The position numbers were made by a program. From the IMG/VR virus record IMGVR_UViG_2713896799_000013: a stretch of DNA of 36,212 nucleotides, one strand, 5' to 3'. Positions within the stretch are counted from its first letter, which is position 1; the number at the start of each line of letters is the position of its first letter. Positions 20,701 through 23,700 of this stretch are shown here, one piece after another. This DNA comes from a virus. Its lineage: Duplodnaviria > Heunggongvirae > Uroviricota > Caudoviricetes.

Positions 20701-23700
20701 TATGTGCTGCCATAACGTCGCCAGTAGGTGTTCACCGTCGGCGGGTAAGGCAAAACAAACTCTATACGCATCAGTAACCTCTTTTACCCAAGCACGCCGG
20801 TTGCAAAGGCGTGATCAAGAAAACGAAAAATTAAATCAATCTGGGAACCATGGTTTTCTTCGAACGCCAGCAGATCCGCATGAAGTTCGTTGTGATGCTC
20901 CCGGCACAGCGGTAGTGTAAAAATATCGTGGGCCTTTGTTCCCATTCCGCCCTGACCATGACCAATCAGGTGATGGGGATCGTCGGCTGGCTTACCACAA
21001 CACGCACACGGCTGTGTCTTTACCCAGCGCGTGTATTTCTCATTTACCCAGCGGCGACGTTTAGGTCGCCTCATGAACGATTCAGGAGACTCCGGATCAA
21101 CGGCGATACTGACAACCGTTTTTTTCTGTGGTGGATTTTGTTGCTGGTGGACGTGAAGTGGCAGCGCAATATTTTTTGTGCGCTGCTTCAGTATGCTGGT
21201 GGCTGTCGGTTCTCCCGGTATGATGTCGCTCTCGCGGTACACCGAGCAAATTTTCTCTGCACGTAACCCCAGAGAACGACGTAATACTGTCTCCGGTAGC
21301 GCGTCCGCCACCTGATTGCAGACCGCCCACCAGGATAATTCAGCCAGCGATAATTCCCGCTCCTGCGTGCCATTGATTGCATGGCGTATGACGTCAATCA
21401 TCCATGCTGACAGATTTTGTTGAGCAAGTTGCCCGAGTGATTCGGAAGTCTGGTCACGCAGCTGGTTGTCGCAGTGCCAGCAAAATACCATCGCGCCGGT
21501 ACCGTAACGATGTATGACGGTTTCACTGTGATGATAGTCACCATGAGGCCACTGGCAGGATTTGACATGACGCAACAGCCAGTCAGACAGTGCACCAGCG
21601 CCGCCAGCAGCACGAATCACCCGCTCATCGCTGAAAAATGGCAGTAATGATTTATCTTCCGCCAGCGGCTGGCGAACGGCAGGAACAGCTCCGGACGGCA
21701 GACCGCGCATGCTTTTCGGTTCCGGCTCCACCAGTACCCGGGGATTATGAAATACCTGCATGGATTCACGGCCCGGCTTAAGGACCACCAGCCCGAGTTC
21801 CGGCACCGGAACAGGTCGAAGTAATACCCGCACGTTACCTCCAGATCCGTTGCTGGTATGTGCGGGATGGACGCGGCGGGCGTTCGGAATAAGGGAGCCT
21901 GACGTAGATTATCCAGTGACGATAATCGAGACTGAGGGCTTTCCTAAACTCATACCCACGTCTGCGGTAGTTCTGAATCAGCCATTCGGCCTGTGCTTCA
22001 GTGCATGGGTCATGCTGGTACCAGTCATATTTGAATGCATGAGAACGCCGCCCGTGCCTGCTGGCACGAACAGTATCAGAATTGTGTAATTTGGTATCGT
22101 GCGCCATCGGTTGTCTCTGCTGGCGCAGCAGGTGCCAGTTGTTCAGGCTGGCGTGCGAATTGTAAACCAGAATGCCAGGAAAAAACAAAACCCGCCGAAG
22201 CGGGTTTTCATTGGAAGCGCCTTTAGTTTTGCTGTTCTATTTTAAGCTTGATAGTTTCATACAAAACAATAGTTGCGCCTGTTTTACATAATTCCCGGCT
22301 GTCATACGCGCGAGACCAATAACACAACCAGTTCTCGAGATCTTCTCGAGTATAGGTTTTGCAGGCCAGTCCCTCTGCCATTTCCACGATTTCATCGCCT
22401 GGTGCTGTTAACTCATAGCCATTCAACAACAAGAAGACGTAACCAGCCATCATAGCTGTTCGTTTGTTCGCATTAGCAAACGGATGATTCTGAATCAGAC
22501 TTTCAATCAATACCGATGCCAGTACAAACATGTCATTAGTCTGTTCATACCATCGAACCATGCTGGGACGGGCCTGAGAAGAACTTAAGTTATCTGGACT
22601 CAGAACACCAACGGGCTCATCTGGCGTCTGTAATTCAATTAGGGAACGATTGATTTCAACAAGATCATCAACCGTAAGGTAATGCACTCCTTCAACAATC
22701 TCAGCCATAGAGCACAATACCCATCATTACACTTTTGAAAGTTCTTCCATGGCTTTCTCATAACGAGAAAAACCGAAATCAAAAGCATTTTTCACTTGTT
22801 CACGATGTGCGCAGTCTTCATCAATCGCTGGGCGAGGGACTGCCACAACGCTTTTATCGCGAGGCGGAATACTCAACCGCGTGTGTTTTTTGAGTAGGCA
22901 GCTCATACTAATGAGTCCTTTTGTTTTCCGATTATTGGCAAAGCCATGCACCAAATTTGATACAAAATAGATCTGTTTGAGATCCTTAGGATAGTCTAAT
23001 GGTAGCTAAAATTACAACCTCATAATGCGACGAAAACCCCGCCGAAGCGGGTTAAGTGCGGGTGCGTTGAGGATGCCTGACACATCAGAGGCGGCGAGGG
23101 ATTTCTCCCTCGCTTGGTCACTCTTACTCTCTAGATTCGTAGTCTACGAAGACAGCGACCTCCGTCTGGCCGGTTCGGATTCGTACCTCGCAGAGGTCTT
23201 TCCTCGTTACCAGTGCCGTCACTATGACGGTTAAACAGATGACGATCAGGGCGATTAACATCGCCTTTTGCTGCTTCATAGCCGGCTTCTCCTTGCCTTT
23301 CGGCACGTAAGAGGCTAACCTACATGTGCAAAGCATGAAATTGGCCTCAGATTAATGTTAAGCGTCTTGCCGGACGCGTAATGTTAACTGGGGCTTTTCT
23401 CTATCTGCCGTTGGTGTTCATGCCCGAGGCAGATAGCCTCAAGCACCCGCTGCAATTCTACTTAACTCTCCTTTTCCCGCAAACCGTTTTTATCCCCAGC
23501 GGCAAATCGAATACACCACCAGCGCCACCGCAAGTGCAATTCCTACCGTTGTGAATGCTTCAGGCCAGGTCATCGATTCACCTCCTGCTCAATATTTTTA
23601 AGGTCATTTTCCGCATACAGTATTGCTGTCCTGGCTGCTCGCAACCGGGCTTTGGCATTTTTCTCTTCACGTTCAAGTTTTTCCACAGCTTCACGAAGAG

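What the first reader, a model, noticed from the sequence alone, without database searches (positions are those of the whole stretch)
22223..23336. Two stacked toxin modules in the nin-like region: Doc/Fic toxin with upstream small ORF, and a Hok-family type I toxin
A Doc-type Fic protein (HPFANANKR motif) is preceded by a small ORF that is not Phd-like in sequence and is followed by its own terminator. About 400 bp upstream on the same strand is a canonical Hok-family toxin gene with a structured 5' region where a Sok-like antisense RNA would be expected. Qin carries relBE plus hokD at the equivalent place; here the type II module is swapped for Doc/Fic, suggesting modular exchange of addiction or abortive-infection cassettes. 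The partner ORF may be an unfamiliar antitoxin type.
Basis: partly seen in the sequence, partly recalled or inferred. Interest (0 to 1): 0.5.

Follow-up and report, generated by a model that had tools for sequence, protein, structure and literature searches.

The report
Prophage Doc toxin cassette beside hok/sok
An E. coli lambdoid prophage carries a well-known hok/sok killer locus and, right behind it, an inserted two-gene cassette: a Doc kinase toxin plus an unnamed 59-residue protein that is most likely its minimal antitoxin. The toxins are ordinary, and the small partner is a modest novelty.

Summary
All genes are on the minus strand.

- **Doc:** a 161-aa Doc-family toxin at 22223..22708, with an exact Doc motif HPFANANKR.
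- **Small ORF:** a 59-aa ORF at 22727..22906, 18 nt upstream of doc. A terminator follows doc at 22208..22187.
- **hok/mok/sok:** a complete locus at 23036..23455, about 93% identical to the experimentally validated hokW-sokW of phage 933W/Sp5.

The small ORF is a real gene under purifying selection. It belongs to an unannotated family (PHROG 2208, "unknown function") with no Pfam, NCBIfam or PDB hit. It sits directly upstream of this Doc clade in 14/14 bacterial loci from about ten genera, 80/80 viral contigs and 4/6 distant relatives.

AlphaFold gives one confident C-terminal helix and no DNA-binding fold. That helix weakly but consistently resembles the Doc-neutralising tail of AbrB-type "doc_partner" antitoxins and of Phd. 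The small ORF is therefore most likely a minimal antitoxin made of little more than the neutralising helix.

The 834-bp cassette is a moron bounded by two copies of the hok terminator hairpin. The slot is empty in most E. coli prophages, and holds rem in Qin and other cassettes elsewhere. The "swap with relBE" is not exact, because relBE lies on the other side of hokD. Toxicity and neutralisation are untested. Interest is modest.

The parts
22206..23039 (.). 834-bp inserted cassette (moron): promoter-like region, small ORF, doc
   Evidence: Absent from phage 689R5 and from empty-slot prophages; homology breaks at window 22205/23040. Flanked by a 20-nt direct repeat at 22187-22206 and 23034-23053. 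GC is 41-45% against 50-60% in the flanks. The full cassette is present in 119 of 5426 complete E. coli genomes.
22187..22208 (-). Intrinsic terminator after doc (distal copy of the hok terminator hairpin, with a good T-run)
   Evidence: Scan: AAAACCCGCTTCGGCGGGTTTT followed by GTTTTTTCCT. This copy is identical to the single hok terminator of empty-slot prophages (L106).
22223..22708 (-). Doc-family toxin gene, 161 aa (WP_000818167.1)
   Evidence: TIGR01550 DOC_P1 128.4 bits (cut-off 38.65), Pfam Fic 46.5 bits, PHROG 577 'Doc-like toxin' E 1.8e-51. Best PDB matches are 9vzc_A at 4.7e-13 and P1 Doc 3k33_A at 5.6e-5. A clade-specific C-terminal extension carries W.C.WSR.YDSR.LC.
22460..22486 (-). 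Catalytic motif HPFANANKR (residues 75-83)
   Evidence: Read directly from the translation. It fits the Doc consensus HxFx(D/N)(A/G)NKR, which I recalled from memory of Castro-Roa et al. 2013. H75, F77, N81, K82 and R83 are invariant in the Doc alignment.
22727..22906 (-). 59-aa small ORF, proposed minimal antitoxin (WP_001277678.1; PHROG 2208)
   Evidence: ATG preceded by AAGGA; its stop lies 18 nt before the doc ATG. Family of 38 representatives at 50% identity, nearly all 47-62 aa. Directly upstream of this Doc clade in 14/14 genome loci, 80/80 viral loci and 4/6 distant members. pN 0.16-0.27 against pS 0.67-0.90.
22736..22807 (-). Codons 34-57 of the small ORF: predicted single helix, proposed Doc-neutralising element
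   Evidence: AlphaFold2 with 41 sequences gives a helix at 34-57 with pLDDT about 95. This is the most conserved part of the family, with A41 and L56 invariant. pN is 0.06-0.14. It aligns end-to-end with the tail of AbrB-type Doc antidotes.
22969..22985 (-). Inverted repeat GGATCT-CAAAC-AGATCT in the cassette leader (possible operator or 5' hairpin)
   Evidence: Read from the sequence. Related cassettes in other genera carry GGATGT-N4/5-ACATCC at a similar place. Its function is inferred only.
22988..23017 (-). Promoter-like TTGTAA-N18-TATCCT for the cassette
   Evidence: Read from the sequence. It falls below the scan threshold. A second E. coli cassette variant with a different spacer keeps TTGTGA-N18-TATGCT at the same place. 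Inferred, not shown.
23038..23051 (-). hok terminator hairpin (proximal copy, weakened T-run GTTTTCGTCG)
   Evidence: Scan; comparison with the empty slot.
23058..23072 (-). fbi element at the 3' end of hok mRNA (CCUCAACGCACCCGC)
   Evidence: Pairs with the 5' tac element in the minimum-free-energy fold of 23036..23455 (z = -7.3). Invariant in 933W and 689R5.
23124..23279 (-). hok toxin gene, 51 aa
   Evidence: Pfam HOK_GEF 79.9 bits; PHROG 251 'MokW-like host killing' E 1.3e-32. Differs from HokW of 933W only in the last two residues.
23124..23336 (-). mok reading frame (70 aa, in frame with hok, as annotated for mokW)
   Evidence: ORF list; mokW/hokW annotation of 933W.
23277..23448 (-). hok mRNA 5' leader (Rfam 'sok' model hit on the sense strand)
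   Evidence: RF01794, 111.1 bits against a gathering score of 59, E 1.2e-24, full model.
23437..23450 (-). tac element at the 5' end of hok mRNA (GCGGGUGCUUGAGG)
   Evidence: Pairs with fbi in the fold.
23293..23321 (+). Sok promoter-like TTGCCT-N17-TAACCT
   Evidence: Read from the sequence. Its complement is invariant in window, 933W and 689R5. Inferred.
23326..23396 (+). Sok antisense RNA (approximate, by homology to sokW)
   Evidence: sokW is annotated in 933W at L004 2777..2847 on the strand opposite hokW, mapped to the window through the alignment. The fold is -31.9 kcal/mol, z = -5.15, with a terminator hairpin followed by UUUU.

Best explanation
Two independent toxin-antitoxin modules sit head-to-tail in the nin-like region of a lambdoid (Qin/933W-like) E. 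coli prophage.

**(1) hok/mok/sok, a canonical type I locus.** The hok mRNA is held inert by 5'-3' (tac-fbi) pairing. The short antisense Sok RNA, made from the opposite strand across the mok start, blocks mok/hok translation and targets the duplex for RNase III. When Sok decays, Hok is made and depolarises the inner membrane.

**(2) An 834-bp moron inserted at the hok terminator.** It carries a bicistronic type II module.
- Doc is a Fic-fold kinase expected to phosphorylate EF-Tu and stop translation.
- The 59-aa upstream protein is its cognate antitoxin. Its conserved C-terminal amphipathic helix (residues 34-57; hydrophobic stripe F42, F46, Y49, M53, L56) is proposed to lie in the Doc groove, as the C-terminal tail of Phd or of AbrB-type antidotes does.
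- Unlike those antitoxins, it has no recognisable DNA-binding domain, only a roughly 33-residue extended N-terminal segment with a conserved RLxIPxRDK motif.
- The likely role is that of a prophage moron: host growth arrest when the labile antitoxin is no longer replenished, for example after infection by another phage, on loss of the prophage, or on induction.

**Shown here:** family membership of Doc and Hok, the RNA elements, obligate linkage and purifying selection of the small ORF, and the cassette boundaries.

**Inferred:** toxicity, neutralisation by the helix, the promoter, and the biological role.
For: **Doc**
- TIGR01550 128 bits, an exact Doc motif, and PDB Doc matches.

**Small ORF as the cognate partner**
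- Directly upstream with a 10-60 nt gap in 14/14 loci from Kluyvera, Citrobacter, Serratia, Hafnia, Morganella, Rosenbergiella, Providencia, Yersinia, Xenorhabdus and Orbaceae.
- Also in 80/80 viral contigs.
- Also next to Doc homologues of 44-54% identity for four distant family members.
- Synonymous sites are saturated while pN is 0.16-0.27 overall and 0.06-0.14 in the helix.
- AlphaFold2 gives a single helix at 34-57 with pLDDT about 95.

**Tail similarity to known Doc antitoxins**
- TIGR02609 doc_partner gives sub-threshold hits in 5/41 members. For P0039, residues 26-57 map to profile positions 43-74 of 74.
- hhalign against four AbrB-type Doc partners aligns the last 21 columns of both families, P = 0.004.
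- The end-anchored gapless register is the best of all registers for 4/4 AbrB partners (shuffle p 0.002-0.02) and second best for Phd (p 0.03).
- The Phd gatekeepers F56 and L70 (PMC9207808) correspond to F42 and L56, with the same 14-residue spacing and the same distance from the C-terminus.
- A portable Doc-neutralising 'Phd-C' element attached to unrelated domains has been shown experimentally (PMC10440598).

**hok/sok**
- Pfam 80 bits and Rfam 111 bits.
- About 93% DNA identity to hokW-sokW, which is a validated type I TA system (PMC8621323).
- The tac-fbi pairing appears in the fold, and the Sok fold has z = -5.2.

**Cassette**
- Breakpoints, direct repeat and low GC.
Against: - No experiment bears on toxicity or neutralisation.
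- The tail similarity is short and statistically weak. hhalign probability is only 8%, every TIGR02609 hit is far below the 55.9-bit cut-off, and Phd itself is not recovered by hhalign.
- No complex model could be made.
- Two of the weakest family hits, P0046 and P0050, are not followed by a Doc gene.
- The antitoxin lacks a DNA-binding fold, yet the cassette leader contains inverted repeats, so autoregulation is unexplained.
- The cassette promoter falls below the scan threshold.
Confidence: 0.75

Rival explanations
1. The small ORF is not the antitoxin. It is a separate phage protein or a leader/coupling ORF that merely travels with doc, and Doc is controlled in another way, for example by its own clade-specific C-terminal extension or by a host factor.
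For: No family or structure match for the whole small protein. The Doc clade has a conserved extra C-terminal segment of unknown role. Two weak family hits occur without Doc.
Against: Linkage is perfect in 94 of 94 close loci across genera, with the gene order and spacing typical of type II TA systems. The strongest constraint is on a helix whose pattern matches known Doc-neutralising tails. Reading residues 125-161, I found no [ST]xxxE[GN] inhibitory-helix motif in the Doc extension.
Confidence: 0.1
2. The small protein is a full antitoxin-repressor. Its N-terminal RLxIPxRDK segment is a new minimal DNA-binding element (for example a beta-ribbon formed on dimerisation or in the complex) that autoregulates the cassette through the inverted repeats in the leader.
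For: Inverted repeats recur in the promoter/leader of related cassettes. They are GGATCT-N5-AGATCT here, GGATGT-N4/5-ACATCC in Kluyvera/Citrobacter-type loci, and TAATGTAA-N6-TTACATTA between the -35 and -10 hexamers in Providencia-type loci. The N-terminal motif is conserved. The N-terminal region has pLDDT about 80 without secondary structure.
Against: No DNA-binding fold is predicted or detected. The repeats are short, differ between lineages, and could equally be RNA hairpins. The N-terminus is the faster-evolving half (pN 0.25-0.38).
Confidence: 0.25
3. The modules are decaying remnants of a cryptic prophage with no present function, as are many chromosomal hok loci of K-12.
For: The prophage region contains pseudogenes (a partial DNA methyltransferase). 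K-12 hokD has lost its mok/sok leader.
Against: Both ORFs are intact and nearly identical in 119 genomes and 48 viral contigs. The small ORF and doc are under purifying selection across genera. hok retains mok, the Sok promoter, tac/fbi and the terminator.
Confidence: 0.07

Closest known systems
Phd-Doc of phage P1 and of Salmonella Typhimurium (type II TA; PDB 3K33, 3DD7)
   Same: The antitoxin gene lies directly upstream of a Doc kinase toxin carrying the HxFx(D/N)(A/G)NKR motif. The proposed neutralisation is by a C-terminal helical tail. The F...L 'gatekeeper' spacing of 14 residues and the distance to the C-terminus are the same (PMC9207808).
   Different: The partner has no Phd/YefM domain: no Pfam hit, and hhalign against Phd gives probability 0.9%. 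It is 59 aa rather than 73 aa. This Doc is 161 aa with an extra conserved C-terminal segment. The module is chromosomal, in an integrated lambdoid prophage, rather than on a plasmid prophage.
AbrB/SpoVT-type 'doc_partner' antidote with Doc (NCBIfam TIGR02609; PDB 9VZC chains A and B)
   Same: 9vzc_A is the closest solved relative of this Doc (E 4.7e-13). The last roughly 21 residues of the small ORF family align end-to-end with the tail of these antidotes.
   Different: The AbrB swapped-hairpin DNA-binding domain (about 50 residues) is missing. The best TIGR02609 score is 14 bits against a cut-off of 55.9.
PanA_Phd-C:Doc of Corynebacterium doosanense (Ernits et al. 2023, PMC10440598)
   Same: It illustrates that the Doc-neutralising tail is a portable linear element that works when attached to unrelated scaffolds. 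That paper also notes the existence of single-domain antitoxins made of a neutralisation element alone.
   Different: There the tail is fused to a Panacea domain. Here it is preceded only by a short segment with no recognisable fold.
hokW-sokW of Stx phage 933W / Sakai prophage Sp5 (Takada et al. 2021, PMC8621323)
   Same: About 93% DNA identity over hok, mok, the leader and the Sok region. Hok differs only in its last two residues. The architecture is the same.
   Different: In 933W the locus lies near the end of the prophage genome, in another context. Here it lies in the nin-like region upstream of DUF968-RusA-Q and is followed by the doc cassette.
relBE-hokD-rem of the Qin prophage of E. 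coli K-12
   Same: The backbone is the same: hok, a 92-aa hypothetical gene, ydfU (DUF968) and Q. A type II module lies next to hok.
   Different: relBE lies 5' of hokD and has replaced the mok/sok leader; K-12 homology stops at about the hok start. The slot that holds small ORF-doc here holds rem in Qin.

Membership tests
Doc (death-on-curing) subfamily of Fic proteins | Match to the Doc/Fic profile above the curated cut-off | tested here: met
   TIGR01550 128.4 bits against 38.65; Pfam PF02661 46.5 bits against 24.
Doc (death-on-curing) subfamily of Fic proteins | Doc-type active-site motif HxFx(D/N)(A/G)NKR (K in place of the Fic G; consensus recalled from the literature) | tested here: met
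   HPFANANKR at residues 75-83; H, F, N, K and R are invariant in alignment A4.
Doc (death-on-curing) subfamily of Fic proteins | Phosphorylates EF-Tu and arrests translation | not testable with these tools
   Needs an in vitro kinase assay or a toxicity assay.
Type II toxin-antitoxin module | Bicistronic pair, small antitoxin gene immediately upstream of the toxin, conserved linkage | tested here: met
   18-nt gap in the window. Linkage in 14/14, 80/80 and 4/6 loci.
Type II toxin-antitoxin module | Antitoxin protein binds and neutralises the toxin | not testable with these tools
There is only indirect sequence evidence.
Phd/YefM antitoxin family | Phd/YefM N-terminal fold (Pfam PF02604) | tested here: not met
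   No Pfam hit for the ORF or for any of 41 family members. hhalign against Phd gives probability 0.9%. AlphaFold shows no folded N-terminal domain.
AbrB-type Doc antidote (TIGR02609 doc_partner) | Full-length profile match including the AbrB/SpoVT domain | tested here: not met
   Best score 14.3 bits against a cut-off of 55.9; only profile positions 43-74 are matched.
Phd-C-like Doc-neutralising tail | C-terminal amphipathic helix with conserved aromatic and Leu 'gatekeepers' 14 residues apart, ending 3 residues before the C-terminus | tested here: inconclusive
   The pattern is present (F42...L56) and the helix is predicted with pLDDT about 95. The statistics are weak: P 0.004 against AbrB partners and p 0.03 against Phd.
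Hok/Gef type I toxin with hok/sok regulation | Hok peptide profile match | tested here: met
   PF01848 79.9 bits against 22.
Hok/Gef type I toxin with hok/sok regulation | mok frame, Sok antisense region, and tac/fbi long-range pairing in the mRNA | tested here: met
   RF01794 111 bits; mok ORF; 5'-3' pairing in the fold; Sok fold z = -5.15; about 93% identity to the validated hokW-sokW locus (PMC8621323).
Hok/Gef type I toxin with hok/sok regulation | Sok RNA is expressed and represses Hok | not testable with these tools
   Needs a northern blot or RNA-seq and growth assays.

The most novel reading that the evidence does not exclude
PHROG 2208 proteins are a distinct class of minimal Doc antitoxin: a Phd-C-like neutralising helix plus a short RLxIPxRDK segment, with no DNA-binding domain. 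This class has co-evolved exclusively with a 'long' Doc clade carrying a conserved C-terminal WSRxYDSRxLC extension. The two clade-specific parts may contact each other, or may sense a phage trigger. That would make the pair a widespread prophage-borne abortive-infection or superinfection-exclusion cassette of Enterobacterales rather than a classical autoregulated addiction module.
Probability: 0.25. Interest if true: 0.5.

Novelty: new variant of a known kind. Interest (0 to 1): 0.3.

Why it matters
The hok/sok and Doc parts are textbook systems, and the hok locus is a near copy of a characterised one.

What is new is modest but concrete. It gives a likely function to a protein family that public annotation still calls 'hypothetical' or 'unknown function' (PGAP; PHROG 2208). 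That family accompanies a Doc toxin in prophages of E. coli, Salmonella, Yersinia pestis, Providencia, Xenorhabdus and other genera.

If confirmed, it would be a natural example of a Doc antitoxin reduced to the neutralising helix. It would therefore be useful for understanding how antitoxins are assembled from portable parts, for peptide inhibitors of Doc, and for improving TA and defence annotation.

The locus also shows, at base-pair resolution, how different morons are exchanged at a duplicated terminator hairpin in lambdoid prophages.

Tried and rejected
- **Doc structure from a single sequence:** the model was useless at mean pLDDT 41, so no fold search was run.
- **Deeper doc_partner profile:** a database search with the Enterococcus AbrB partner returned only relatives of at least 83% identity and added nothing.
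- **PDB profile search with the small ORF family:** only chance hits, E above 0.3.
- **PADLOC:** no meaningful hit for any of the three genes.
- **Literature search by RefSeq accessions of the two proteins:** nothing found.
- **Longer ORF:** I considered that the 75-aa TTG-started ORF (22727..22954) is the true product. I rejected it because homologues in other genera start at the ATG and the upstream residues are not conserved.
- **Strand of the Rfam hit:** I considered that the Rfam 'sok' hit gives the Sok strand. I rejected it because the hit is on the hok sense strand and ends at the hok AUG, whereas the 933W annotation puts sokW on the opposite strand.
- **Self-inhibition of Doc:** I considered a Fic-type [ST]xxxE[GN] helix in the C-terminal extension. 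No such motif is present.
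Full report
**What is there.** All relevant genes are on the minus strand. The window is 100% identical to a prophage of E. coli GB089 (NZ_CP013663). In the direction of transcription the order is:
- replication genes, a methyltransferase, and several small genes;
- a 140-aa ORF, then hok/mok/sok;
- the small ORF, doc and a terminator;
- a 90-aa hypothetical gene, DUF968 (ydfU-like), RusA and Q.

This is the nin-like region of a lambdoid prophage. 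DicF lies further along on the other strand.

**Doc.** The ORF at 22223..22708 (161 aa from the annotated ATG) matches NCBIfam TIGR01550 DOC_P1 at 128.4 bits (cut-off 38.65). It also matches Pfam Fic at 46.5 bits and PHROG 577 'Doc-like toxin'. Its closest solved relatives are 9vzc_A (E 4.7e-13) and P1 Doc (3k33_A, 5.6e-5). HPFANANKR occupies residues 75-83 and fits the Doc consensus HxFx(D/N)(A/G)NKR, which I recalled from the literature. The H, F, N, K and R positions are invariant in an alignment with distant Docs. Membership of the Doc family is therefore established by sequence, but activity is not tested. This clade is about 35 residues longer than P1 Doc and carries a conserved W.C.WSR.YDSR.LC segment.

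**The small ORF.** 22727..22906 encodes 59 aa. Its ATG is preceded by AAGGA, and its stop lies 18 nt before the doc ATG. RefSeq calls it 'hypothetical protein'. Pfam, NCBIfam, PADLOC and PDB give nothing, and PHROGs places it in phrog_2208, 'unknown function'.

A search of 5.8 billion proteins found only 15 clusters, all enterobacterial. A profile search of 1.84 billion representatives found 38 proteins, almost all 47-62 aa. The consensus is M..A.kK..RL.IP.RDK..vA.PrPa....H..QV.NAF..gF.RYEKA.EELSKV.

The ORF is a real gene. Against homologues in other genera, synonymous sites are saturated (pS 0.67-0.90), while pN is 0.16-0.27 overall and 0.06-0.14 in the C-terminal part. AlphaFold2 with 41 sequences predicts one helix at residues 34-57 (pLDDT about 95). 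It predicts no secondary structure in residues 1-33.

**Linkage to Doc.** The small ORF lies directly upstream of a Doc of this clade in three sets of loci:
- all 14 loci found in one-genome-per-species contigs, from Kluyvera, Citrobacter, Serratia, Hafnia, Morganella, Rosenbergiella, Providencia, Yersinia pestis, Xenorhabdus and Orbaceae;
- all 80 viral contigs retrieved with a Doc alignment;
- four of six distant family members that I could place: P0023, P0033, P0038 and P0039, whose Docs are 44-54% identical.

The two exceptions, P0046 and P0050, are the weakest profile hits. Docs of other clades have AbrB-type, RHH-type or Phd partners instead. hok accompanies the pair only in E. coli-type prophages: 42 of 80 viral loci, none of the 14 other genera, and none of the 32 more distant viral loci. 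The pair is therefore an autonomous two-gene module, and 'stacking' with hok is a local accident of insertion.

**How the small protein probably works.** Known Doc antitoxins neutralise through a C-terminal helical tail. Phd residues 52-73 suffice, with F56 and L70 acting as 'gatekeepers' (PMC9207808). The same kind of tail, named 'Phd-C', works when fused to unrelated scaffolds (PMC10440598).

The small ORF family's tail shows the same pattern. F42 and L56 are 14 residues apart, L56 lies three residues from the C-terminus, and a hydrophobic stripe runs through F42, F46, Y49, M53 and L56. The quantitative support is weak but consistent:
- TIGR02609 doc_partner gives sub-threshold hits in 5 of 41 members. 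These map tail to tail: P0039 residues 26-57 align to profile positions 43-74 of 74.
- hhalign against four AbrB-type partners aligns the last 21 columns of both families, with P = 0.004 but probability only 8%.
- In a gapless test, the end-anchored register is the best of all registers for all four AbrB partners (p 0.002-0.02) and second best for Phd (p 0.03).
- A solved complex of the AbrB type exists (9VZC chains A and B).

I conclude, as an inference, that the 59-aa protein is a minimal antitoxin: the neutralising helix plus a short N-terminal segment. It is neither a Phd/YefM nor an AbrB protein, because those membership tests fail.

**Regulation (inferred).** A promoter-like TTGTAA-N18-TATCCT lies at 23017..22988. 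A second E. coli cassette variant has a different spacer but keeps TTGTGA-N18-TATGCT at the same place. Short inverted repeats occur in the leader here and in related cassettes. Whether a protein without a DNA-binding fold uses them is unknown.

**hok/sok.** Hok (23124..23279) matches PF01848 at 79.9 bits. An in-frame mok starts at 23336. Rfam RF01794 matches 23448..23277 at 111 bits. This hit is on the hok sense strand and marks the leader. By homology to the 933W annotation, Sok lies on the + strand at about 23326..23396. It has a conserved TTGCCT-N17-TAACCT promoter-like site and folds into a terminator hairpin (z = -5.15). The full hok mRNA fold shows the 5' GCGGGUGCUUGAGG pairing with the 3' CCUCAACGCACCCGC, the tac/fbi interaction (z = -7.3). 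The locus is about 93% identical to hokW-sokW. [quoted passage not shown] This part of the finding is already known biology.

**The cassette and the 'swap'.** Relative to phage 689R5, homology breaks at window 22205/23040. In empty-slot prophages the hok terminator ACCCGCTTCGGCGGGTTTTGTTTTTTCC runs straight into the 90-aa gene. In the window a 20-nt copy of that hairpin sits at each end of the 834-bp cassette (22187-22206 and 23034-23053), and the upstream copy has a weakened T-run. The cassette has 41-45% GC against 50-60% in the flanks.

The full cassette occurs in 119 of 5426 complete E. coli genomes. In an evenly spaced sample of flank matches, 23 of 35 well-covered loci are contiguous, meaning the slot is empty. 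The rest carry inserts of about 240-650 bp. These include rem in K-12 Qin and a 130-aa ORF bounded by the same hairpins in 689R5. Strain 8178 has parDE next to the same 90-aa gene and no hok.

In Qin, relBE lies 5' of hokD, where the mok/sok leader should be, and K-12 homology stops near the hok start codon. Modular exchange is therefore well supported. But doc has not replaced relBE: it occupies the slot that holds rem in Qin.

**Verdict.** The toxins are ordinary members of known families. The antitoxin candidate is an unannotated, narrowly distributed family that looks like a stripped-down Doc antidote. That makes this a new variant of a known kind, of modest interest, pending a simple toxicity and rescue experiment.

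Noticed in passing
window 23490..23573 (-): Unannotated 27-aa hydrophobic ORF, MTWPEAFTTVGIALAVALVVYSICRWG. It has a GGAGG ribosome-binding site, and its start overlaps the stop of the 140-aa ORF, just upstream of the hok promoter. It is conserved with amino-acid variation in about 30 related viral contigs, so it may be a small membrane peptide gene.
   Followed up: partly
window 22223..22330 (-), Doc residues ~125-161: Clade-specific C-terminal extension of Doc with conserved W.C.WSR.(Y/F)D(S/T)R.LC. It is absent from P1 Doc and from AbrB- or RHH-partnered Docs, but present even in a 44%-identical relative. Its role is unknown.
   Followed up: partly
window 23030..23051 (-) versus 22187..22208 (-): The hok-proximal copy of the terminator has a degraded T-run (GGGGTTTTCGTCGC), while the copy after doc keeps GGGTTTTGTTTTTTCC. 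Read-through from hok into the cassette, or altered 3' processing of hok mRNA, is therefore possible.
   Followed up: no
window 30738..30789 (+): DicF antisense sRNA, Rfam RF00039, 77 bits, full length. It is consistent with a Qin-like dicB operon in this prophage.
   Followed up: no
window 15711..15886 (-): Match to the sRNA family STnc100 (RF02076, 93.7 bits), ending in a terminator hairpin.
   Followed up: no
window 17614..17764 (-) and 35235..35321 (-): Three tRNA genes. The first two are annotated tRNA-Gly and tRNA-Thr downstream of Q in the GB089 prophage, as in Stx-type phages.
   Followed up: no
L105 (E. coli 8178, NZ_CP151932) 1744..2306: A parD/parE type II module, in the opposite orientation and without hok, sits next to the same 90-aa hypothetical/DUF968 backbone. 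This is another toxin-antitoxin cassette at this hot spot.
   Followed up: partly
L108 705..1920: In a metagenomic contig, a distant small ORF relative is followed by two consecutive Fic-domain genes of 145 aa and 242 aa.
   Followed up: no
L003 (phage vB_EcoS-689R5) 2805..3197: The alternative cassette in the same slot encodes a 130-aa protein (PHROG 16082, unknown function). Its start looks like a lipoprotein signal, and it has a faint match to a Cor superinfection-exclusion family (E 0.007).
   Followed up: partly
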